A stretch of DNA of 64,000 nucleotides. It comes from a phage. Position numbers and translations under genes: made by a program. Shown in pieces: positions 9,769 to 50,971 of this stretch; positions within the stretch are counted from its first letter, which is position 1, and each line of letters begins with the position of its first letter. Where the stretch lies: the NCBI GenBank assembly GCA_017822615.1, contig GCA_017822615.1_4530.1. One strand, 5' to 3'. The notes beneath the pieces are model-generated. The model did not search any database. It saw nothing but the letters and a program-made list of their open reading frames with translations, and had not been told where the DNA came from.

Positions 9769-12443
9769 TAGTCGTAATATTTCAAACCTGTAATGAACTT
9801 CGATCCCCAATCCGCACTTGCGGCGGTGAACGTCAACATCCAAGTTGTAGCTGTACCAGTGAAGACCTCTCGTTGCACAGTACCATCAGTGTGGTAAATG
9901 TCCACGCCAGTATGTCCATTCTTAGGAATAGTGAAGGTAACAGCACTGGTAGTGTCTCGTGCATAAGAACAAACAAATGGTGTCCCAGCCCAAACTGGAT
10001 TTGTCATATCACCCATCTCAAGCTGTGGAACCCAAGCAATAAGACCTGCCGTACCATCTCCTGCGAAAGTGTCTGATCCACTTGCATTCAAAGCTATAAT
10101 CTCATAGGTTATAGATGCTTGTTTGGCAACTGTCACTTTGTGTAGAATTACACGATACCAACCATTCCCCATATCGATTATGTTTGCATCTGCACCTGTA
10201 AATGTTCCAGCTACAAGATCATAAGTCCCTTCGTTAATCTCATCTCCTGAAGTCAATTTGAGTTTCACTTTAGTGATCCCGTCTGGCTTCAAGAATACGG
10301 ATGCCGCCCAGTGCTTACCTGCTGTAATATCAGAAGCTGTATTCACTGCTGATAAAATATGTTGTCCTGAAGTTGTAGAAGGTGTTAACTTGTAAGTGTT
10401 AGCTGTAGTTCCAACCGGAGAGTTGATTGTTGATGCCGTGACTGTCAAGTTCGTCTTCAACCACGGGGAAGCTGTTGTCAAGTTATTGTTGATAAAGATA
10501 TGTGTACGGTTGGCTGCTACAACACGTCTACCTTGTGGAGTTGTACCAACATATTCTAAAGGTGCTACGGGAGCAGAACTCTCTGTAGGTACAAGGATAT
10601 CTCCAGAAGCCCTGGCATAACGGTTACTCCTGTTGACCTTTACATCCGCCGGAATAGTTTCTTGCGTCAAATCATAATCCATCACAATCACCACAGCATT
10701 CACTGTGAGATAAGAACTATCTTCGGCAGTTACCACACCTTGATAAGTTGCTCTACAACCGATACGACAACCTCCATCAGCAACCGCTGTAATAACGCCT
10801 GTAACGGGGTCAACTGTTGCTACCGTAGGGTCATTAGAGAAATACTCAACAACCATACCAGGTAAGCTTGCTGCTCCTGTTGGCGTTATTTCTGCTACCA
10901 TTGTTTGTGTTGTTCCTACATCCATCGCAGATAAGCTAGGGGTGTAAACACTCAATGTTGAAGCATATCCTCCAGAGGTATCTGATAAAGTTGTTCCTTC
11001 AGCGTTTAAGGCTGTCATACCTGCATCAAAACCACCTTCTGCATGGAAAGTCATTAAACCAGTAGATGATATTGTCATGTTTGCAGGGGCAGAAGAAGTG
11101 TATTTAATATTGAAAAGTTTGCCTCCTTCTGGGCTAACAGAATGTGTCAACTGTTTAGTTCCACCTACAATACAAATTCCTAAAGAATCTGTAGTTAAGC
11201 CTGTTGCCAGAATATCGCCCGTAATCACGGAGCTTGCTATTGGTGTGAATTTATTATAGTTTAGACCACTATTGAACAGATACGAGGCTTTCCCATCTTT
11301 CCAAATACCGGAATAATACATATCTCCATTATAAACGAAAAAGGTTCCTTGATAACCTAATTGGTTAGTAACATCCATATTCAGCGTATGAACGCTTGTG
11401 AGCTTGTTTATATCCCAAGAACCCACTCCTTCAGGTTTAACTGGTTTTCCCACTTGGAGTGGATCTCCGCTCGCAGAATCATACCCCAAACCTAAGTTTG
11501 CAGTGTAGTTCTTACCAATAGCCCACAAGGAATTATTGATCCCAACGAAAAAAGAGTGGCGGCTTGGTGGAAACTTCCATGTTGAGAAACCTGCTGCAAA
11601 GGTATCCAGTTTAGTGTAGGTTGTTTCTGTATTAGATCTAACATATAAGTAGTTTACTGTACCCGTGCCACCGGAGGTATCTCCTACAACTATTGTCTGG
11701 GAAACTGTATTGATGTAATCTTTGACATACACTGTTTCAGTAGTGGATATTGTGGCATTGACAAAAGCTGTTGTTGTGTTATTATTACCTGCTAAACCTT
11801 TACTAGCTCCACAAACACGCAAGGTTCCCACATTGTTGACATAAGAGCATTGGTTGTAACCTGCATCAAAAGCAACTGCTGCGCTTGTTATCTGACGAGG
11901 AGTAGAAACTTCGTTAGTAGTGCTTGCACCTAAACTACCTACTGTGTTTTGACCCGATCCATAAAGAACACCACTATTCATTAACCAGAGAGTATTGTTA
12001 TACCCTCCTTTAACCTCTTTAAGATTGGCTAAAGAAATAGTCCCTGTTATTACAGATGGAAAGCTGGTCCAGGTAGTTACACATGCATCCGTACCACCTG
12101 CTGCTATAGATCCTACCAACCCTGCTGTCAATCCTGAATATTGCCATCCCCCACTGTTAGTTTTAATAACAAAACAACGATCTGCGGTAAACACATCCGC
12201 TACTACAGTAGAAGCTAAGTGGAAATTATTGAATCGTGCACTACGAGTTCCATCTGCAATCTCACCAAAGAGGTTTGCGCCTTGAGTAAACAATCTACCA
12301 TCATTAAGCAAAATTGCTAAACTGCTGTTAGAATTACCAGCGTTATCTGGGTAATCTAAAGTGATTACTTTTTTAACAATACCTGCTGGCAGAGGAACGA
12401 CACCAGTGCTGGTCATAATAGTAAATATTGGAATTGGAAACAT
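9768..12443 (-). CDS. tail fiber / receptor-binding protein with RCC1-like repeats
   Basis: 891 aa; repeated G-x-N/Q-x-x-G-x-L-G motifs (GVLYGSGQNTVGSLG, GRLFTQGANLFGEIADG) suggest a beta-propeller. Confidence 0.6.
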   Translation of the reverse strand: MFPIPIFTIMTSTGVVPLPAGIVKKVITLDYPDNAGNSNSSLAILLNDGRLFTQGANLFGEIADGTRSARFNNFHLASTVVADVFTADRCFVIKTNSGGWQYSGLTAGLVGSIAAGGTDACVTTWTSFPSVITGTISLANLKEVKGGYNNTLWLMNSGVLYGSGQNTVGSLGASTTNEVSTPRQITSAAVAFDAGYNQCSYVNNVGTLRVCGASKGLAGNNNTTTAFVNATISTTETVYVKDYINTVSQTIVVGDTSGGTGTVNYLYVRSNTETTYTKLDTFAAGFSTWKFPPSRHSFFVGINNSLWAIGKNYTANLGLGYDSASGDPLQVGKPVKPEGVGSWDINKLTSVHTLNMDVTNQLGYQGTFFVYNGDMYYSGIWKDGKASYLFNSGLNYNKFTPIASSVITGDILATGLTTDSLGICIVGGTKQLTHSVSPEGGKLFNIKYTSSAPANMTISSTGLMTFHAEGGFDAGMTALNAEGTTLSDTSGGYASTLSVYTPSLSAMDVGTTQTMVAEITPTGAASLPGMVVEYFSNDPTVATVDPVTGVITAVADGGCRIGCRATYQGVVTAEDSSYLTVNAVVIVMDYDLTQETIPADVKVNRSNRYARASGDILVPTESSAPVAPLEYVGTTPQGRRVVAANRTHIFINNNLTTASPWLKTNLTVTASTINSPVGTTANTYKLTPSTTSGQHILSAVNTASDITAGKHWAASVFLKPDGITKVKLKLTSGDEINEGTYDLVAGTFTGADANIIDMGNGWYRVILHKVTVAKQASITYEIIALNASGSDTFAGDGTAGLIAWVPQLEMGDMTNPVWAGTPFVCSYARDTTSAVTFTIPKNGHTGVDIYHTDGTVQREVFTGTATTWMLTFTAASADWGSKFITGLKYYD

Positions 12444-33245: not shown

Positions 33246-33269
33246 CGAAAAAACCCCGCCGAAGCGAGG
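33246..33269 (-). terminator. rho-independent terminator (minus strand)
   Basis: GC hairpin followed by a T6 run on the minus strand just after the tape measure stop. Confidence 0.45.
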
Positions 33270-33276
33270 TATTTTA

Positions 33277-35262
33277 TTAACCACCAGTGTTAGATTGTCC
33301 ACTTAGAGTTGAAAGAGATAAACGTTGGAAAATGCTATTTCCGCTATTTTGAATTCTTGCATCAAGAATATTTCCAAACTCTGAAGAAGGGCTGATCGTA
33401 ACTTTGATAAGATCACTTGGTATTGCTACCGTATTCTCAACAACAGGTTGATTACGAGCCAAACTTACATTAGGTGTATATGCCGACTGACGTAAATCTT
33501 CCAGAGGGTTTCCGAAACCGAAGGTTTGTGATCTGGTTTCTTCTCCTCTTATAGCACGACCAACATCTCGTGTATCTAAACCAGTGGCATTAAATATCCA
33601 ATCTGCTATAGTATTTGGTATTATTTGAGATGCGTCATTCACCTTATCTAATATAGATTTGTTCGGATCTGAATTTTTACCAAAAGTATCAGGGAAAGTT
33701 TCTTTTAACCAGTTATTAAAAGATCCAAAACCATCTCCTAATTCTTTAGCAAACCCTGTAAGCTGGACAGTTGTCTTACCAAGTTCTTCACCTAAATTTT
33801 TGGCGAACTGATCTAACACTTTAACGTTATCCAACCAACCATCATCTTTAGGTAAAGCTTTTACAAAACCTTCTAAGAAATGGTTCTGCATACCTTGACC
33901 TACAAGTTGAACTGTTGCAGCAAAACGAGTAAACTCTTTAGAAGCGTCTATTTGTTCTTGAGTTAATGTTGCACCTGTTCTTTGAAGCATTTTCAATGTT
34001 TCATTGTATCCTTCGCCGTTTTTACTAAACATTCGTTGGTAGTGCATAAGGTCGTCACCAAGGTTTTCAAGAAGTCGCCCGATTTGAGCAGAGTTCATAC
34101 CTCGACGCTCACCTTCATTAACAGTAGCCTGAATAAAAGCTAAAGGATCGTTCTGTAAAGGTTTAAGCTGTTCTGGATTCCATCCAAACAAGTTCATAAT
34201 GTCATTTATGCCATTATCACCGCCTTTCCACTTCCCTTCTTTCTCATTCCATTTTGAGGCTAAAACTGTATTACCAAGACGTTCACGAACGTCTTTAATA
34301 TTATCTATTGACTTAATAATATTTGCAGAGTCTACACCGTTCTGTTCACCCCAAGCTGTCATCGTTAAAATAGAGTTGGCGTTTGTCTGAACGTTTTCAG
34401 CGCCACGGCTTACAAGTTTAATTCTTTCGTTAGTATTCATCAAAGTGTTACCAACTACAGAACCACCTGCAAACAGTCCAGCACCGATCAAAGAGGATGC
34501 AATCATGCGTGGATTAAGACCTGCTGCACCTTCTTTTAATTGTCCATATCGACGATCACGATCACGTTTTTGTTGAGCTAATTCACGCTTACGGTTGCGT
34601 TCTATATCTCTAAGTTCACGATTTCGCATACGTATACGCATTTTAGCTTCTGCTTCTAGCTCTCTACGAATACGGCGACGACCGCGAACCTCGTCTTCTA
34701 TTTCAGCATTCTTTTCACGATGAGATCTGCGTAAAGCATCCAACTGGTGAGCAAGAGCTTGGTTCATACGTTGAAGAGTTATTTCACCCTTTTTGTATTG
34801 CTCTACAGCTTTACCCATAACGTCCCTAGCTTCTTGCATAGCCCCAGGACTGGCTTTACTAAACGCTCTTGCTCTGTAGTTAAAGTTCTGCAAACGAAGA
34901 TTACCTAAATCTTCCCTACGTGCTGCTGCTTTAGCTTCGCGTTCAGCAGCTTTACGAGCTTTTTCTTCTTCTCTACCTTGTGGGGTTTTAGGAGTTCTAG
35001 GTCTACCAGAACCACCTACAGGAGCACCCGCTCCAGCGGGAGTAGGTGCTCGCATAGGTTTTTGGCTTTGAGTTTGAGCTTTCTTAAGTTCACGCTCAAT
35101 CTCTTTCATTTGTTGTCTAAACTTGGTCATGTTCATAGTGGGTTGCATTTTATTTGCAAACTTCTGAACACTCAACACGGCATCTTTTGCTTCCTTGAGA
35201 CTGTTCTTGTCCACCTTAAACGTAACCACGTTACTAATTCTGGAGGCGTTAATTTCTAACAA
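33277..35262 (-). CDS. tail tape measure protein
   Basis: 661 aa; Arg/Glu-rich helical core; follows the chaperone pair. Confidence 0.75.
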   Translation of the reverse strand: MLEINASRISNVVTFKVDKNSLKEAKDAVLSVQKFANKMQPTMNMTKFRQQMKEIERELKKAQTQSQKPMRAPTPAGAGAPVGGSGRPRTPKTPQGREEEKARKAAEREAKAAARREDLGNLRLQNFNYRARAFSKASPGAMQEARDVMGKAVEQYKKGEITLQRMNQALAHQLDALRRSHREKNAEIEDEVRGRRRIRRELEAEAKMRIRMRNRELRDIERNRKRELAQQKRDRDRRYGQLKEGAAGLNPRMIASSLIGAGLFAGGSVVGNTLMNTNERIKLVSRGAENVQTNANSILTMTAWGEQNGVDSANIIKSIDNIKDVRERLGNTVLASKWNEKEGKWKGGDNGINDIMNLFGWNPEQLKPLQNDPLAFIQATVNEGERRGMNSAQIGRLLENLGDDLMHYQRMFSKNGEGYNETLKMLQRTGATLTQEQIDASKEFTRFAATVQLVGQGMQNHFLEGFVKALPKDDGWLDNVKVLDQFAKNLGEELGKTTVQLTGFAKELGDGFGSFNNWLKETFPDTFGKNSDPNKSILDKVNDASQIIPNTIADWIFNATGLDTRDVGRAIRGEETRSQTFGFGNPLEDLRQSAYTPNVSLARNQPVVENTVAIPSDLIKVTISPSSEFGNILDARIQNSGNSIFQRLSLSTLSGQSNTGG

Positions 35263-35282
35263 AGTATGTTCCTCGTGTTGGA

Positions 35283-35618
35283 TTAAACAAGTTTCTTAAA
35301 CAAATCTGACATTTTGTTTGTCTGGTTTTGATGTTTTCTCTTTATTGAAGTGTCTTTAACATACATGGCTTCAACATACTCTTCGTATGTTAAATACTCA
35401 TATAGTTTTAAAAGATAATCTACACCGTAGTTATCTAATGTTTTCAGTGTTTCCGAGGTATCTTTAACGACTTTGCAAAGAATAACCTCATACCACTTCA
35501 AAGTAAGGGTTTTCGTTGCTGTGTCGATAGCATGTTCAATCGCAGGTGTTAATTTGCTGCTAAACTCGTCATCGCCTGAAGCTGTGTGAACAGTTTTCCG
35601 AAACCTCGTTTGAAAAAA
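35283..35618 (-). other. -1 frameshift extension of the tail assembly chaperone (GT-like fusion, about 249 aa)
   Basis: Slippery heptamer at 35612-35618 (minus strand); the -1 frame is open from there through the 72-aa ORF to the stop at 35283. Confidence 0.55.
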
Positions 35619-36031
35619 GGGCCGTAGTTTACCTCCAGAACTTTAGCAGTAAGATCTAACACTAGTTCTGGGTGAGCCATAAATAATTCATCAAAATTTT
35701 CTGCAACGTTATAACCGTCTTGAGTATAAACCTCATCTAAAATTTTACGCAAAAAGACAGTTAAATTCTTTTCTTCCAAACCTGCAAAAAGTTGGATCAG
35801 TGCCATAGCAATACGTGACTCAAGGTCTTCGTCTGCGGACATTGTTGCTGTGCTATACATAGTCATAGGAACAACCAGAACACTACCTAATTCTGGAATC
35901 CTGTCAAACACTTTAGATGGACTCCACTTCATAATACGGAAAGTAACAGATCTGTTTCCATCTAACGGAATCTCAACTACTTCTTCTGGTCGAGCATATT
36001 TTTGAATTGTGTTATCTTGTTCTTGTGACAT
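35549..36031 (-). CDS. tail assembly chaperone (G-like)
   Basis: 160 aa directly upstream of tape measure; contains slippery heptamer T_TTT_TTC. Confidence 0.65.
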   Translation of the reverse strand: MSQEQDNTIQKYARPEEVVEIPLDGNRSVTFRIMKWSPSKVFDRIPELGSVLVVPMTMYSTATMSADEDLESRIAMALIQLFAGLEEKNLTVFLRKILDEVYTQDGYNVAENFDELFMAHPELVLDLTAKVLEVNYGPFFKRGFGKLFTQLQAMTSLAAN

Positions 36032-36076
36032 ATTTTCCTCTCTAATGATAAAAAGGGCATTTCTGCCCTTTATTTA

Positions 36077-36556
36077 TTATTGAATTGTCAGAGCAGAGAT
36101 TGAGTTAAGGGTGCTCAAACCTACACCAACTTCATTACGCAGAAGGCTTGCATCTTTAAGACCAATAACCCATTGGTTCTCTGTAATCATTTCGCCAATA
36201 GTATCTTCAGGCTGACTTTGAATCCATCCAATCGTGCTAATGTAATAGCCACGTGGGTCTTCCAAGTAAACACTGAATGCTACTTGACGAGTAGAATACA
36301 TTGTTTGTGCATATGTTGCAAGTACTTCGTTAGCTGGAGATGTGCGTTGCAAAGACATTGTGAGTGTTCCCAAACGGTTACGACTCAAAGCTAATGAAAC
36401 GTCCCCATCAGTCCCTGAATAAGGGTTGATAATATCGTTAGATTTAGCAATAACGATTTTAGTATCAGCCGCAAAACCCCACGGTTCCCAACCACCTAAT
36501 GAAAGGATAACTTGAGATGGGTCGTAGGCCATTACGCCAGTAAGCATTTTATCCAT
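36077..36556 (-). CDS. tail tube protein
   Basis: 159 aa immediately downstream of the sheath gene; RBS AAGAGG. Confidence 0.65.
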   Translation of the reverse strand: MDKMLTGVMAYDPSQVILSLGGWEPWGFAADTKIVIAKSNDIINPYSGTDGDVSLALSRNRLGTLTMSLQRTSPANEVLATYAQTMYSTRQVAFSVYLEDPRGYYISTIGWIQSQPEDTIGEMITENQWVIGLKDASLLRNEVGVGLSTLNSISALTIQ

Positions 36557-36602: not shown

Positions 36603-37976
36603 TTAGTTTGCAGTACGGTTAGTCAGGACGTTGACCTGAACTTTAACGTAATGGAAGAAGCCAGCGTAAACATATTCAATCTTCATCCCATCAACCAGAC
36701 GAGCATTGATTTGCGCATCGGTCATATCGGCACGAGAAGGAATATAAACTATAGGTTTCAGATCGACACGCAAACCAGTCTCTTCAGAAGTAACAACTTC
36801 ATTAGCGATGGAACCGTTGAGGATACCTACTTGGATCGGGTTAGCCAGAACAGCTTGTCGAATCAAAGCTAGACCGTTTGAAGTAGCACGAACACCACCA
36901 CCCAGCATAGACTGTTGTTTAAACAGTGTAAACAGTGATTCTTCTGTGCGAGCTTTAAACCACAAAGCATGAACAACATAGTCAACAAAGAAACCGCTAA
37001 CCATCAATCCATCACGATAGAACAGAGTTCCATGCTCTTTACGATAGATGTTACCGTTCTGTTGAACAATATTGTTTTCCGAAGTCTGATCCAGTTTCTC
37101 GATCTCTACACCTACCAGTGTTTTACCGTGAAGGGTAGTTAAACCAGGTTGACGAGAACAGATAGCACCAACAACTGCTGCTTCTGGGAATACAGAATCT
37201 GCATCGGTCATCCACAATGCAAAGCAAGTGTTATTATAACCGAGATCATTCAGTCGTTCCAGAACGTTATCTTCTGCTTTCGTTTTAATTCCAGGTTCAG
37301 AACTAGAGAAGAAGTAAACTTTATCATTCTCTTCTACCCATGCAGCCAAAGCTAGAATATCTTCTGTTTCATGGGAATCTGAAAGGGTCCAGAACCAGCT
37401 ACTATCAATATCATGCAGAGCAGCAATATCTTCCGTAATAGCATTAGCATAGACAGTTTCTTGAGTGAAACCTGTGCTATCAATAGAACCAAACTTACCT
37501 TCTACTGGAGTGAAAGTCATTGCAGCGCCGTTGTTAGCTACTGTAAACAGTGGGCCATAAACAAGATCTGCATTGATCATTTCAGTAAGACCAACTACAA
37601 TCTCTTGTGCAGTTGCAGTGTCATCAGCAATGAATTTAAATTCTTTTTTCTTGGTACCATTTTTGATGGTAATTGTGTAAGTTGCACTATCTTCTACGAT
37701 TGGAGTTAGAGTAAAGTTTGTAACTTCACGCTTACCAACCATAACTTGATCTGGTGGGAACAAACCGTTAAACAGTTTGACTGCCATAATATACGCTGGA
37801 TCATTTAATCCATAACCTGCTTCCAAAAGTGCATCGGAAGAAGAGTAATATTGAATCGCTTCGCCAGTTACGTTCTGACCTGTAAGGATCAGGGGAATAT
37901 CGAACTGGGTTTCACGAATTGATGTAGCACCATACAGTAAAGTTACGGTTGCTACCTTTTCACGAAAAGTTGCCAT
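36603..37976 (-). CDS. tail sheath protein
   Basis: 457 aa; precedes the tube gene, as in contractile tails. Confidence 0.7.
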   Translation of the reverse strand: MATFREKVATVTLLYGATSIRETQFDIPLILTGQNVTGEAIQYYSSSDALLEAGYGLNDPAYIMAVKLFNGLFPPDQVMVGKREVTNFTLTPIVEDSATYTITIKNGTKKKEFKFIADDTATAQEIVVGLTEMINADLVYGPLFTVANNGAAMTFTPVEGKFGSIDSTGFTQETVYANAITEDIAALHDIDSSWFWTLSDSHETEDILALAAWVEENDKVYFFSSSEPGIKTKAEDNVLERLNDLGYNNTCFALWMTDADSVFPEAAVVGAICSRQPGLTTLHGKTLVGVEIEKLDQTSENNIVQQNGNIYRKEHGTLFYRDGLMVSGFFVDYVVHALWFKARTEESLFTLFKQQSMLGGGVRATSNGLALIRQAVLANPIQVGILNGSIANEVVTSEETGLRVDLKPIVYIPSRADMTDAQINARLVDGMKIEYVYAGFFHYVKVQVNVLTNRTAN

Positions 37977-48952: not shown

Positions 48953-49031
48953 TGGAGGCGGGAATCGGATTCGAACCGATGATCTCCAGCATATGAAACT
49001 GGCGAGGACGACCAGACTCCTCTATCCCGCT
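48953..49031 (-). tRNA. tRNA-Met(CAT): tRNA, anticodon CAT (Met or lysidine-Ile), CCA encoded
   Basis: Manual cloverleaf: T-arm atcgg/attcgaa/ccgat, anticodon loop TTCATAT, 6/7 acceptor pairs. Confidence 0.6.
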
Positions 49032-49037
49032 ATTATG

Positions 49038-49107
49038 TATCCCGTGCTGGATTCGAACCAGCATCACAATAAGCTGTGGAACTCTTATCCTGTAAGTCTA
49101 ACGGGAA
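49038..49107 (-). tRNA. tRNA-like gene, anticodon unresolved
   Basis: Canonical T-arm gctgg/attcgaa/ccagc and 6/7 acceptor stem, but no regular anticodon arm could be folded. Confidence 0.35.
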
Positions 49108-49112
49108 ACTGG

Positions 49113-49183
49113 TTGTTTCGACAAGAATCGAACTTGTATCTCACGATTATCAGTCGTGGGTTCTACCATTGAACTACGAAACA
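49113..49183 (-). tRNA. tRNA-Ile(GAT): tRNA-Ile (GAT)
   Basis: Perfect 7-bp acceptor stem, D-stem GTTC/GAAC, anticodon loop CTGATAA, T-loop TTCGATT. Confidence 0.75.
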
Positions 49184-49192
49184 TTTAATTGG

Positions 49193-49266
49193 TCGGAATT
49201 GCAGGATTCGAACCTGCGACAATACGCTCCCAAAGCGTACACTCTACCAAACTGAGCTAAATTCCG
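49193..49266 (-). tRNA. tRNA-Pro(TGG): tRNA-Pro (TGG)
   Basis: Perfect acceptor stem, anticodon stem TACGC/GCGTA, loop TTTGGGA. Confidence 0.75.
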
Positions 49267-49363
49267 TCATAACATTCTAAAGGTACACCGCAAAAGAAAG
49301 TGTTCGGCGGCTCCTCGTTTTTTAACTTCACACTTGAGGTAGTGACTCACCTTTGTTGTATGG

Positions 49364-49436
49364 CTGGTCTGTCTGGATTTGAACCAAACCTACGACAGTC
49401 AAAGTGTCGTGTGCTACCTGACTACACTACAAACCA
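49364..49436 (-). tRNA. tRNA-Gln(TTG): tRNA-Gln (TTG)
   Basis: Anticodon stem CGACA/TGTCG, loop CTTTGAC, T-loop TTCAAAT. Confidence 0.7.
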
Positions 49437-49534
49437 ATAAATCATTTAATGAAGGGCAACCAGAAGAAGTGTGAGAGAAGGAGAAAACCATGAGTAAAAG
49501 AGAAAGTTTTCTGGCAACCCTTTATTAAATAATT

Positions 49535-49611
49535 TGGAGCGTTATATCGGATTCGAACCGATGCCACCGACTTGGAAGGACGGGATGCTGAACCGCTAAC
49601 ACTAATAACGC
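49535..49611 (-). tRNA. tRNA-Gly(TCC): tRNA-Gly (TCC), CCA encoded
   Basis: Perfect acceptor stem, anticodon loop CTTCCAA with one U-U mismatch in the stem. Confidence 0.65.
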
Positions 49612-49619
49612 TTTGTATA

Positions 49620-49654
49620 TATTTACTATACTACATTTTACTATTGGTTGTCAA
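49620..49654 (-). promoter_or_regulatory. tRNA promoter P1 (ctaTTGACAA, TG-extended -10)
   Basis: ttgtcaatag on plus strand at 49647-49656; TATAGT-like -10; reads into tRNA-Gly. Confidence 0.5.
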
Positions 49655-49930
49655 TAGTTTTATTGAGTGGGACAGTGACGAGTATCCCATTGGGTGACTA
49701 GCCCTACGTTCGGTAAGCTAACTTAAAATAATACAAAACAAAAGTCAAATATTATTCTTCGTTGCTGTCGATGGGAGAGCCGCTTCTTCTTTTGCCCCAT
49801 CCAACCCTACTCCGGTCAAGTTTCAGGTGACTCTTTTTGTGATCAACACAATACTAAGAACACTGTCTTTCGAGCAGACCTTGTGCACAGGATACGACGA
49901 TCAATCACAGTGCTCTTAATGTTGTGTTGG

Positions 49931-50002
49931 TGCTCCCACACTGAATCGAACAGAGATCCACGGATTACAAAACCGTTGTAATAGCCATTATACTATAGGA
50001 GC
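49931..50002 (-). tRNA. tRNA-Thr(TGT): tRNA-Thr (TGT)
   Basis: Acceptor stem with one G-U pair, anticodon loop TTTGTAA, T-loop TTCGATT. Confidence 0.6.
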
Positions 50003-50008
50003 AATGCT

Positions 50009-50086
50009 GGGACTCGGCAGGATTCGATACCTGCAATTCCAGAAGCCTATTGGCGACTGGGGGGTTTACCTTAACTCTACAAGTCC
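50009..50086 (-). tRNA. tRNA-like gene, non-canonical
   Basis: Acceptor stem (6 bp plus G-U) and T-stem GCAGG/CCTGC with an 8-nt T-loop; anticodon arm could not be placed. Confidence 0.3.
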
Positions 50087-50093
50087 ATAATTC

Positions 50094-50179
50094 TGGCGAT
50101 GAGTATAGGATTCGAACCTATATTGTTCTTTCGAACACGGATTAACAGTCCGCCGCTTAAACCATTCAGCCAACTCATC
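50094..50179 (-). tRNA. tRNA-Asn(GTT): type II (long variable arm) tRNA with Asn anticodon GTT, CCA encoded
   Basis: Perfect 7-bp acceptor, 3-bp D-stem, anticodon arm GCGGA-CTGTTAA-TCCGT, 15-nt variable arm GTTCGAAAGAACAAT, discriminator G73. Confidence 0.55.
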
Positions 50180-50185
50180 TTAATT

Positions 50186-50273
50186 TGGTGGTGAGTGATG
50201 GAGTCGAACCACCCGAATCGCAATGATAACAGATTTACAGTCTGCCCCGCTACCCCTACGGAATTAACTCACC
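50186..50273 (-). tRNA. tRNA-Tyr(GTA): tRNA-Tyr (GTA), type II, CCA encoded
   Basis: Perfect acceptor stem, anticodon arm GCAGA-CTGTAAA-TCTGT, long variable arm. Confidence 0.65.
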
Positions 50274-50403
50274 TAAATACTAATATTTAAATTCTTTTTA
50301 AAATAGCCAGTGTTCACACCACTAACTATGAGGTATCGGTAAAGTGGTTACCGCCACTTGCCGAAGATTTACTCTGCTAAAGTAAGCTACATTAAAAAGA
50401 ACT

Positions 50404-50489
50404 TGGCGGTAGATGTAGGACTCGAACCTACACGCCGTTTCCGACTACAGTTTAGCAAACTGTCGTGGCTACCATTTCACCAATCTACC
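50404..50489 (-). tRNA. tRNA-Ser(GCT): tRNA-Ser (GCT), type II, CCA encoded
   Basis: Perfect acceptor stem, anticodon arm ACAGT-TTGCTAA-ACTGT, 15-nt variable arm, G73. Confidence 0.7.
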
Positions 50490-50494
50490 TAATC

Positions 50495-50585
50495 TGGCGG
50501 AAGGAGGGAGAGTCGAACTCCCAAGGCTCTTTCAAGCTCGGCGGTTTTCAAGACCGTTTTCGTCGCCACATCGATTTGCCCTTCC
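50495..50585 (-). tRNA. tRNA-Ser(TGA): tRNA-Ser (TGA), type II, CCA encoded
   Basis: Anticodon loop CTTGAAA, long variable arm, T-loop TTCGACT, G73. Confidence 0.6.
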
Positions 50586-50593
50586 ATACTTAT

Positions 50594-50623
50594 AATCTAA
50601 CATAAAATAATGTTTGTTGTCAA
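50594..50623 (-). promoter_or_regulatory. tRNA promoter P2 (ctaTTGACAA, aTGtTAGATT)
   Basis: ttgtcaatag at 50616-50625; reads into tRNA-Ser(TGA). Confidence 0.5.
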
Positions 50624-50819
50624 TAGTTTTTTAAAACATTTTACCATGAATGGTGACTCCACCAACCCCCGTTCTCCACGAACGGTGCTCTTCGAGCATT
50701 TATGTCTTCTAATATAACCGTGGCCTTTGTTTATAATGTCTGACATACTTGCCTCATTCTCTGCCACCATGATCAGTAGTGGGTTCAAATCACTTGAGCT
50801 AATTCATGTTAAAATGTTC

Positions 50820-50894
50820 TGGTGTCTTTACAAGGAATCGAACCTTGACTAAGAGTTTAGAAGACTCCTGTGCTATCCATTACACCATAAAGAC
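50820..50894 (-). tRNA. tRNA-Arg(TCT): tRNA-Arg (TCT), CCA encoded
   Basis: Perfect acceptor stem, D-stem GTGT/GCAC, anticodon loop CTTCTAA. Confidence 0.7.
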
Positions 50895-50896
50895 TT

Positions 50897-50971
50897 TGGT
50901 GGCCCTGGCTGGTTTCGATCCAGCTACCTATCGGTTATGAGCCGACAGCTCTCCCATTGAGCTACAGGGCC
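50897..50971 (-). tRNA. tRNA-Met(CAT): tRNA-Met (CAT), possibly initiator-like, CCA encoded
   Basis: Perfect acceptor stem, anticodon loop CTCATAA with three G/C pairs closing the stem; unusual T-loop ATCGAAA. Confidence 0.65.

What the first reader, a model, noticed from the sequence alone, without database searches (positions are those of the whole stretch)
35283..36031. Programmed -1 frameshift in the tail assembly chaperone pair upstream of tape measure
The 160-aa chaperone gene contains the slippery heptamer T_TTT_TTC at 35612-35618 (minus strand). The -1 frame from that point is open through the 72-aa downstream ORF to the stop at 35283, predicting a fusion of about 249 aa. This is the conserved G/GT arrangement of tailed phages.
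Basis: partly seen in the sequence, partly recalled or inferred. Interest (0 to 1): 0.45.

Follow-up and report, generated by a model that had tools for sequence, protein, structure and literature searches.

The report
Phage tail chaperone -1 frameshift site
A small fraction of ribosomes most likely slip back one base on a run of six T's near the end of this E. coli phage's tail-chaperone gene and make a longer second protein; this is a well-known trick of tailed phages, but public records of this phage group do not annotate it.

Summary
On the minus strand, T_TTT_TTC (35618-35612) is in the right phase in a 160-aa tail assembly chaperone gene (35549-36031; Pfam Phage_TAC_15, E 1e-23). The gene lies between the tail tube gene and the tape measure gene. 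The -1 frame stays open to the stop at 35283, giving a 249-aa fusion.

The window is a phAPEC8-like E. coli myovirus (Phapecoctavirus). In one sequence the heptamer is weak evidence: about 0.13 are expected per overlap. Comparison is decisive.
- All 43 distinct alleles from two subfamilies (down to 23% protein identity) keep NNT-TTT-TTC.
- The -1 frame runs 80-92 codons past the chaperone stop in all loci where the sequence extends far enough; the +1 frame closes within 2-20.
- Synonymous-codon identity rises from about 0.45 to 0.83-0.90 around the site.
- The conserved downstream domain begins before any start codon.

No downstream RNA structure exists. An upstream Shine-Dalgarno-like GGAGGT is a likely stimulator. 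A second heptamer, C_CCT_TTT, overlaps the first.

None of the 19 GenBank records I inspected annotates the fusion, and no searched paper describes it for this lineage. It is a new member of a known kind. It is useful for annotation but not surprising. Ribosomal slippage rather than transcriptional slippage is inferred, not shown.

The parts
35549..36031 (-). Tail assembly chaperone gene 'G' (160 aa, ATG 36031, stop TAA 35551-35549)
35612..35618 (-). Slippery heptamer T_TTT_TTC (codons 138-140 are CCT TTT TTC)
   Evidence: Phase read directly. Invariant in 43/43 distinct alleles. U_UU.U_UU.C falls in the H_HH.U_UU.Y class, among the most efficient heptamers in E. coli (PMC4066793).
35615..35621 (-). 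Overlapping second heptamer C_CCT_TTT; together the two form CCCTTTTTTC
   Evidence: Present in all 20 Stephanstirmvirinae-like alleles and absent from the Vequintavirinae-like ones, which have TGT or AGT. A slip at either heptamer gives the same peptide, GPFFQTR.
35631..35636 (-). Shine-Dalgarno-like GGAGGT, 13 nt upstream of T_TTT_TTC and 10 nt upstream of C_CCT_TTT; candidate 5' stimulator
   Evidence: Duplex with the 16S 3' end is -10.6 kcal/mol, in the top 1% of 15-nt windows in G genes. 19/20 Stephanstirmvirinae-like and 12/23 Vequintavirinae-like alleles reach -6 or lower, against 5.9% of background windows. Glu133 is GAG in 20/20 although GAG is only 27% of Glu codons in the window.
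35552..35642 (-). Overlap window where both the 0 frame and the -1 frame are open (91 nt, from the -1-frame stop TAA at 35645-35643 to the G stop)
35283..35612 (-). -1-frame extension 'T' (109 codons plus stop TAA 35285-35283); with G codons 1-140 it gives the 249-aa GT fusion
   Evidence: phrog_16039, 9.5e-45. Third-position variation dominates in T codons 21-37, which lie after the G stop and before any start codon.
35283..35501 (-). The 72-aa ORF as gene callers annotate it (TTG start, no SD upstream); here read as the C-terminal part of T, not an independent gene
   Evidence: The 20 nt upstream, cagcaacgaaaacccttact, hold no GGAG-like motif. Homologues in the protein database are 64-85 aa orphans with variable N termini.
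33277..35262 (-). Tape measure protein gene (661 aa, TTG start)
   Evidence: phrog_16051, E 0, full length.
36077..36556 (-). Tail tube gene
   Evidence: phrog_280, 3e-35; annotated as tail tube or major tail protein in relatives.
36603..37976 (-). Tail sheath gene
   Evidence: phrog_205 tail sheath, 2e-100; Pfam DUF3383.
36052..36071 (-). Terminator-like hairpin between the tube and chaperone genes (probable attenuator ahead of G-GT-tape measure)
   Evidence: annotated as a terminator in phage Schickermooser.

Best explanation
This is a programmed -1 ribosomal frameshift in the tail assembly chaperone gene of a phAPEC8-like E. coli myovirus. Most ribosomes read gene G to its stop and make the 160-aa chaperone. 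A minority slip back one base with two tRNA-Phe on U_UUU_UUC, or one codon earlier on the overlapping C_CCU_UUU. They then read CAA ACG AGG... in the -1 frame and finish at 35283, making a 249-aa GT protein: G residues 1-140, a short poorly conserved linker, and a conserved helical T domain. The signal has no 3' RNA structure. It consists of the slippery decamer CCCUUUUUUC plus, probably, pairing of the upstream GGAGGU with 16S rRNA. A low efficiency (order of a percent) is expected. By analogy with lambda gpG/gpGT, the G parts coat the tape measure protein and the T domain recruits the tube protein, and neither ends up in the virion. Shown here: the anatomy, the family membership of G, and selection on the slip site and on the -1 frame. 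Inferred: that the shift is ribosomal, its efficiency, the role of the SD-like element, and the function of T.
For: Conservation: T_TTT_TTC is in phase in 16 GenBank-derived loci and 44 IMG/VR loci, 43 distinct alleles in all. Codon 138 always ends in T (CCT x20, TGT x22, AGT x1), codon 139 is always TTT and codon 140 always TTC. This holds although protein identity falls to 23% and window codon usage is TTT 58%, TTC 42%, CCT 51%.

The -1 frame is open 80-92 codons beyond the G stop in every locus where the sequence runs far enough (one IMG/VR locus, L048, ends first); the +1 frame closes in 2-20 codons.

Synonymous-codon identity among same-residue pairs rises from about 0.45 to 0.83-0.90 at codons 134-148, independently in both subfamilies. 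A blastn hit to the diverged phage KP13-16 is confined to a 56-nt island over the site.

The conserved T motif (SLxW[YF]...) lies upstream of the first ATG/GTG/TTG in many relatives (first start at codon 79 in Hena1, 83 in KB57, 63 in CB7). The window's TTG has no SD.

Codon-position variation switches from the 0-frame pattern to the -1-frame pattern right after the G stop.

The heptamer class is among the most efficient in E. coli, and SD-like elements 6-17 nt upstream are the ones with a demonstrated stimulatory effect (PMC4066793). The SD-like element is enriched.

The lambda G/GT mechanism and its 30:1 product ratio are taken from PMC5009743.
Against: There is no protein, ribosome-profiling or RNA evidence, so everything rests on sequence comparison. 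No downstream stimulatory structure exists: the window's z-score is +1.27, 30 relatives scatter around 0, and RNAalifold finds no pairs; efficiency could therefore be very low. The SD-like element is weak or absent in about half of the Vequintavirinae-like alleles and is confounded by the conserved Leu-Glu-Val residues. Part of the nucleotide conservation downstream of the site (GGTTTCG) is explained by dual coding (G-F-G in the 0 frame, R-F-R in the -1 frame) and not by a signal. The alleles are phylogenetically related, so the counts are not independent events. The Foldseek search of the G model against PDB gave no significant match, and the T model has low confidence (pLDDT 65).
Confidence: 0.85

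Rival explanations
1. Transcriptional slippage. RNA polymerase adds one extra U on the T6 run, and ordinary translation of the U7 mRNA gives the same GT protein.
For: The site is a homopolymer run. A U7 transcript would read CCU UUU UUU CAA, which gives GPFFQTR, identical to the frameshift product, so no sequence analysis or peptide mass can separate the two. A non-frameshifting route to TAC isoforms has been proposed for T4-like phages (Vladimirov et al. 2022, as cited in PMC10885494 and PMC12846349).
Against: Efficient slippage by bacterial RNA polymerase is reported on runs of 9 A or T and is not detectable at T5C5 without special context (PMC5009743). Here the run is only 6 and it never lengthens in 43 alleles, although TTC to TTT is synonymous in G and would not create a -1-frame stop in the Vequintavirinae-like alleles (CAC to TAC, CGG to TGG). 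U_UUU_UUC is an experimentally efficient ribosomal slip site in E. coli.
Confidence: 0.06
2. Two separate proteins. The 72-aa ORF is translated independently from the TTG at 35501 and no fusion is made, which is how most GenBank records annotate it.
For: Thirteen of the 19 records inspected (not counting KP13-26) annotate a separate small CDS downstream of G. An in-frame TTG exists.
Against: No SD precedes the TTG. Amino-acid conservation and -1-frame codon periodicity extend 17 or more codons upstream of it. In Hena1, KB57, CB7, L033 and L025 the first possible start lies 58-83 codons into the -1 frame, inside or beyond the conserved domain. This model does not explain the synonymous constraint on the heptamer.
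Confidence: 0.04
3. Chance. A T-rich heptamer happens to sit in the overlap and has no function.
For: The genome is 39% GC. About 0.13 in-phase heptamers are expected per 30-codon overlap, and in-phase TTTTTTC occurs elsewhere in the window.
Against: The heptamer is invariant in 43 distinct alleles across two subfamilies, there is a synonymous-site conservation peak, and a conserved T domain without a start codon lies downstream.
Confidence: 0.01

Closest known systems
Phage lambda gpG/gpGT and the conserved tail-assembly-chaperone frameshift of tailed phages (Levin et al. 1993; Xu, Hendrix and Duda 2004, 2013, 2014; summarised in PMC5009743)
   Same: Two overlapping ORFs lie between the tail tube or major tail gene and the tape measure gene. 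[quoted passage not shown] No strong 3' structure is present, and the second ORF has no initiation signals.
   Different: The heptamer differs: lambda uses G_GGA_AAG (from my own knowledge), here it is U_UUU_UUC with an overlapping C_CCU_UUU. The host virus is a large (~150 kb) contractile-tailed phage. G belongs to a different Pfam family (Phage_TAC_15). The T domain has no detectable sequence relation to lambda T. No experimental evidence exists for this lineage.
TAC-N/TAC-NC -1 frameshift proposed for Vandenendeviridae (Pakpunavirus, phage Adele) and Andersonviridae, with an invariant GTTTTT motif (PMC12846349, Dec 2025)
   Same: [quoted passage not shown] The downstream 'hypothetical protein' is really a C-terminal fragment, and the -1 frame is uninterrupted across divergent genomes. 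The authors place those families as relatives of Vequintavirinae and Stephanstirmvirinae. The Vequintavirinae-like alleles here read TGTTTTTTC, which contains that motif.
   Different: In the passages I read, that paper analyses the TAC locus only for Vandenendeviridae and Andersonviridae. Here the site is defined to the heptamer and its phase, and it reads CCCTTTTTTC (no G) in the window's own subfamily. The upstream SD-like element and the absence of 3' structure were tested here.
Phage P2 E/E+E' tail-gene frameshift (Christie et al. 2002; from my own knowledge, not checked here)
   Same: It is a contractile-tailed phage with a T-rich heptamer and a -1 shift just upstream of the tape measure gene.
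   Different: The proteins are unrelated at the sequence level, and P2 has a small temperate genome.
E. coli dnaX -1 frameshift (PMC5009743)
   Same: An internal SD-like sequence roughly 10 nt 5' of the heptamer is the kind of stimulator proposed here.
   Different: dnaX also needs a 3' stem-loop and reaches about 50% efficiency. Here no 3' structure exists and low efficiency is expected.

Membership tests
G/GT-type tail assembly chaperone programmed frameshift (Xu, Hendrix and Duda 2004) | Two same-strand ORFs lie between the tail tube or major tail gene and the tape measure gene | tested here: met
   The order on the minus strand is sheath 36603-37976, tube 36077-36556, G 35549-36031, T ORF 35283-35501, tape measure 33277-35262.
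G/GT-type tail assembly chaperone programmed frameshift (Xu, Hendrix and Duda 2004) | The second ORF overlaps the first in another frame, and a slippery sequence sits in phase inside the overlap | tested here: met
   The overlap is 91 nt. T_TTT_TTC and C_CCT_TTT are both in X_XXY_YYZ phase.
G/GT-type tail assembly chaperone programmed frameshift (Xu, Hendrix and Duda 2004) | The downstream ORF lacks its own translation initiation signals | tested here: met
   The first start codon is a TTG 37 codons after the slip site, with no SD. In several relatives the first start lies 58-83 codons in, within or past the conserved domain.
G/GT-type tail assembly chaperone programmed frameshift (Xu, Hendrix and Duda 2004) | The arrangement and slip site are conserved among diverged relatives | tested here: met
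   All 43 distinct alleles keep the heptamer. The -1 frame is open 80-92 codons in every locus that extends far enough. A synonymous-site conservation peak sits at the site.
G/GT-type tail assembly chaperone programmed frameshift (Xu, Hendrix and Duda 2004) | Both products are made in a fixed ratio, the long form is required for tail assembly, and neither is in the virion | not testable with these tools
   This needs a western blot or mass spectrometry, and phage genetics.
Pfam PF21822 Phage_TAC_15 | Score above the curated gathering threshold over most of the profile | tested here: met
   84.3 bits against a cutoff of 22; profile positions 3-125 of 127.
Tail assembly chaperone fold (e.g. HK97 TAC, PDB 2ob9) | Structural similarity of the G model to solved TAC structures | tested here: inconclusive
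   [not shown]
dnaX-type -1 frameshift signal | A 3' stem-loop or pseudoknot 5-9 nt downstream of the heptamer | tested here: not met
   The window's MFE is -11.2 kcal/mol with z +1.27. No excess stability appears in 30 relatives. RNAalifold predicts 0 pairs. Rfam has no match.
dnaX-type -1 frameshift signal | An SD-like sequence 6-17 nt upstream of the heptamer | tested here: met
   GGAGGT lies 13 and 10 nt upstream and pairs at -10.6 kcal/mol. It is enriched in relatives but not universal. Its function was not tested.
Programmed transcriptional slippage | A homopolymer run long enough for RNA polymerase realignment (about 9 A/T in bacteria, or special context) | tested here: not met
   The run is T6 in all 43 alleles. 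The threshold is taken from PMC5009743.

The most novel reading that the evidence does not exclude
The signal may be an unusual 5'-only recoding signal shared by a whole proposed order of large myoviruses. It would consist of a slippery decamer with no 3' structure, an upstream SD-like element, and a spacer (AAC TAY GG) that is under synonymous constraint for an unknown reason: AAC is used in 42/43 alleles although AAC and AAT are used 50:50 in the window, and this stretch is not translated in the -1 frame. Alternatively, the long form may arise by transcriptional slippage on only six T's, which would be shorter than any run known to work in bacteria.
Probability: 0.12. Interest if true: 0.45.

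Novelty: new member of a known kind. Interest (0 to 1): 0.28.

Why it matters
The value is mainly for annotation. In the phAPEC8-, phi92- and rV5-like phage records I inspected, many from phages proposed for therapy or biocontrol, this locus appears as a chaperone plus an orphan 'hypothetical protein' of arbitrary length, or with the second ORF missing. The evidence here supports one joined GT product with a defined slip site. It also extends the poly-T chaperone frameshift recently proposed for Pakpunavirus-like and Felix O1-like phages to two more subfamilies, which supports an old, vertically inherited recoding signal in this group. Finally, it offers a compact natural cassette (an SD-like element plus CCCUUUUUUC, with no 3' structure) for studying structure-independent -1 frameshifting in E. 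coli. It does not change what is understood about tail assembly.

Tried and rejected
- Downstream stimulatory structure. I folded the 82 nt after the heptamer (z +1.27) and the 60-nt downstream segments of 30 relatives (z scattered around 0), and ran RNAalifold on -40..+50 in 13 phages (0 pairs). Nothing was found.
- Rfam scan of 35200-36100. The only hit was a sub-threshold chance match to SraG.
- Natural in-frame G-T fusions. Searches of the 5.8-billion-sequence protein collection with the fusion and with T alone found only ~160-aa G proteins and 64-85-aa T fragments, so there is no 'fused gene' confirmation.
The T model alone has low confidence (pLDDT 65, pTM 0.35, long helices), so I ran no fold search on it.
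- GenBank annotation. None of the 19 records inspected carries a joined CDS.
- Literature. No frameshift is mentioned in the rV5 genome paper or in the Stephanstirmvirinae papers found. Vladimirov et al. 2022 is not held.
- The conserved GGTTTCG 6-9 nt downstream was considered as a signal and set aside, because dual coding explains it (Gly-Phe-Gly in the 0 frame, Arg-Phe-Arg in the -1 frame).
- A weak 5-bp pairing that I spotted by eye between the upstream AAACU and the downstream GGUUU was dismissed: the ribosome would melt it at the slip site, and the alignment fold does not support it.

Full report
**What is in the sequence**

On the minus strand the window carries, in order:
- a tail sheath gene (36603-37976; phrog_205, 2e-100);
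- a tail tube gene (36077-36556; phrog_280);
- a 160-aa ORF (35549-36031);
- a 72-aa ORF called from a TTG (35283-35501);
- a 661-aa tape measure gene (33277-35262; phrog_16051, full length).

Codons 138-140 are CCT TTT TTC, so T_TTT_TTC at 35618-35612 is in the X_XXY_YYZ phase. The -1 frame has its last stop at 35645-35643 and then runs open to the TAA at 35285-35283. A slip therefore gives 140 + 109 = 249 aa with the junction ...VNYGPFF|QTRFRK.... All the coordinates and numbers in the finding are correct.

A second in-phase heptamer, C_CCT_TTT (35621-35615), overlaps the first. GGAGGT (35636-35631) lies 13 and 10 nt upstream of the two heptamers.

**Where the window comes from**

The region is 97-99% identical to many phAPEC8-like E. 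coli myoviruses (genus Phapecoctavirus, subfamily Stephanstirmvirinae, about 150 kb). None of the 19 GenBank records I inspected from this subfamily and from the related Vequintavirinae annotates a joined CDS. They list the chaperone plus a small 'hypothetical protein', or omit the second ORF altogether.

**Is it more than chance?**

In one sequence the evidence is modest.
- In-phase heptamers occur at 0.0043 per codon in the window's ORFs, so about 0.13 are expected in the 30-codon overlap.
- A long -1 extension alone is common, because downstream genes often sit in that frame.
- G is the only ORF of 58 that combines an in-phase heptamer with a long -1 extension.
- The 109-codon open stretch far exceeds the longest open -1 run inside long ORFs, which is 67 codons at a stop density of 0.106 per codon.

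**Comparative evidence (decisive)**

I collected the locus from 16 GenBank-derived loci and 44 IMG/VR loci, 43 distinct chaperone alleles in all. Of these, 20 are Stephanstirmvirinae-like and 23 Vequintavirinae-like (rV5, Hena1, KB57, SSE121, CB7, Av-05, ChuuTotoro and others). Protein identity to the window falls to 23%.

- *The heptamer is invariant.* Codon 138 always ends in T although the residue changes (CCT x20, TGT x22, AGT x1). Codon 139 is always TTT and codon 140 always TTC. Window codon usage is TTT 58%, TTC 42% and CCT 51%.
- *Only the -1 frame is open.* It runs 80-92 codons past the chaperone stop in every locus where the sequence extends far enough (one IMG/VR locus, L048, ends first). 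The +1 frame closes within 2-20 codons.
- *Synonymous sites are constrained at the slip site.* Codon identity among pairs with the same residue is 0.4-0.55 along the gene and rises to 0.83-0.90 at codons 134-148. This holds separately in each subfamily. It falls back afterwards even though both frames are still coding. A blastn match to the diverged Klebsiella phage KP13-16 is limited to a 56-nt island over the site.
- *The T domain starts before any start codon.* The -1-frame product contains a well-conserved domain (SLxW[YF]..., TSET/KGE..., YLLKL.EYL). In Hena1, KB57, CB7, L033 and L025 it begins upstream of the first ATG/GTG/TTG (first start at codon 58-83). The window's TTG has no Shine-Dalgarno sequence.
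- *The codon periodicity switches frame at the expected place.* Variation by codon position follows the 0-frame pattern in the overlap. It switches to the -1-frame pattern (third position 0.61 against 0.36 and 0.22) in T codons 21-37, which lie after the G stop and before any start codon.

The downstream domain is therefore translated, cannot initiate on its own, and is reached from G at a site under direct nucleotide-level selection.

**How it most likely works**

U_UU.U_UU.C and C_CC.U_UU.U both belong to the H_HH.U_UU.Y class, which is among the most efficient -1 heptamers measured in E. coli. Both gave more than 0.1% shifting without any stimulator (PMC4066793). From textbook knowledge, E. 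coli tRNA-Phe reads both UUU and UUC, so both tRNAs can re-pair with cognate codons after the slip. A slip on either heptamer gives the same peptide.

No 3' stimulator exists:
- the downstream 82 nt fold no better than shuffles (z +1.27);
- 30 relatives show no excess stability;
- the alignment has no consensus pairs;
- Rfam has no match.

The only candidate stimulator is the upstream SD-like element.
- It pairs with the 16S 3' end at -10.6 kcal/mol in the window, in the top 1% of background windows.
- It reaches -6 or lower in 19/20 Stephanstirmvirinae-like and 12/23 Vequintavirinae-like alleles, against 5.9% of background windows.
- Glu133 is GAG in 20/20 although GAG makes up only 27% of Glu codons.
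- Its spacing lies within the 6-17 nt range for which stimulation has been demonstrated (PMC4066793).

Its function is inferred, and the conserved Leu-Glu-Val residues confound the signal. I expect low efficiency, as in lambda, where G:GT is about 30:1 (PMC5009743).

By analogy with lambda, G and the G part of GT bind the tape measure protein, and T recruits the tube protein. That part is inference from the family, not tested here. Terminator-like hairpins after the tube gene (36052-36071) and after the tape measure gene (33253-33270) bracket G-T-tape measure as a unit.

**Rivals**

- *Transcriptional slippage on the T6 run.* It would give an identical protein (CCU UUU UUU CAA), so it cannot be excluded by sequence or by a junction peptide. 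However, bacterial RNA polymerase slippage is reported as efficient on runs of about 9 and undetectable at T5C5 without special context (PMC5009743). The run never lengthens in 43 alleles.
- *Independent initiation of the 72-aa ORF.* This is contradicted by the missing SD, by the conservation upstream of the TTG, and by relatives that lack a start codon.
- *Chance.* This is excluded by the conservation.

**Comparison with what is known**

This is the G/GT arrangement of tailed phages (Xu, Hendrix and Duda 2004; review PMC5009743). All the sequence-level defining features were tested and met. The experimental ones (two products, requirement for assembly) could not be tested.

The nearest published case is a December 2025 proposal of a conserved -1 frameshift with an invariant GTTTTT motif in the chaperone genes of Vandenendeviridae and Andersonviridae. 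The authors place those families as relatives of Vequintavirinae and Stephanstirmvirinae (PMC12846349). The Vequintavirinae-like alleles here read TGTTTTTTC, which contains that motif. The window's own subfamily reads CCCTTTTTTC.

I found no paper describing the frameshift for phAPEC8-, phi92- or rV5-like phages. The library is incomplete, so an earlier mention elsewhere cannot be ruled out. No natural in-frame G-T fusion was found in the large protein collection.

**Verdict**

This is an ordinary, well-understood kind of recoding. It is a new, so far unannotated member in a therapeutically popular phage group. Two details are of minor interest: the tandem slippery decamer, and a signal that has no 3' structure and probably relies on a 5' SD-like element. 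One observation remains unexplained: synonymous constraint on the spacer codons (AAC in 42/43 alleles) upstream of the slip site, where the -1 frame is not translated. Interest is low to moderate.

Noticed in passing
window 36052-36071 and 33253-33270 (minus strand): Terminator-like hairpins lie directly after the tail tube gene and after the tape measure gene. They bracket chaperone-T-tape measure as a unit, and the first may attenuate expression relative to sheath and tube.
   Followed up: partly
GenBank MG065650.1 and other 'Campylobacter phage' records: Several records labelled Campylobacter jejuni phages are 99.6% identical to this E. coli Phapecoctavirus region, and others to phi92-like and rV5-like phages. 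The host labels look doubtful.
   Followed up: no
window 48953-50971 (minus strand): A cluster of 10 tRNA genes: Met x2, Ile, Pro(UGG), Gln, Gly, Thr, Asn, Ser, Arg. There is no tRNA-Phe. The phage tRNA-Pro(UGG) could read the CCU codon of the first heptamer; its relevance is unknown.
   Followed up: no
L009 (phage rV5) 951-1319; proteins P0042-P0059: rV5 ORF50 is annotated as an ORF overlapping the chaperone gene by 109 nt and starting right where the -1 frame opens. Across databases the T fragment is called as a 64-85 aa orphan with arbitrary N termini. This is a systematic mis-annotation of the locus.
   Followed up: yes
T extension, codons ~8-35 after the slip site (window 35510-35590; L009-L015): The linker between the slip site and the conserved T domain is poorly conserved. 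It is 15-20 residues longer and Gly/Ser/Asp-rich in Vequintavirinae-like phages.
   Followed up: partly
window 35622-35630 (minus strand), chaperone codons 135-137: The spacer AAC TAY GGC between the SD-like element and the heptamer is under synonymous constraint: AAC in 42/43 alleles against 50:50 AAC/AAT usage in the window. It is not translated in the -1 frame, and the cause is unexplained.
   Followed up: partly
window 11547-11553 (minus strand): Another in-phase TTTTTTC sits inside an 891-aa ORF, but the -1 frame closes after 4 codons. It is probably fortuitous.
   Followed up: no
[not shown]
   Followed up: no
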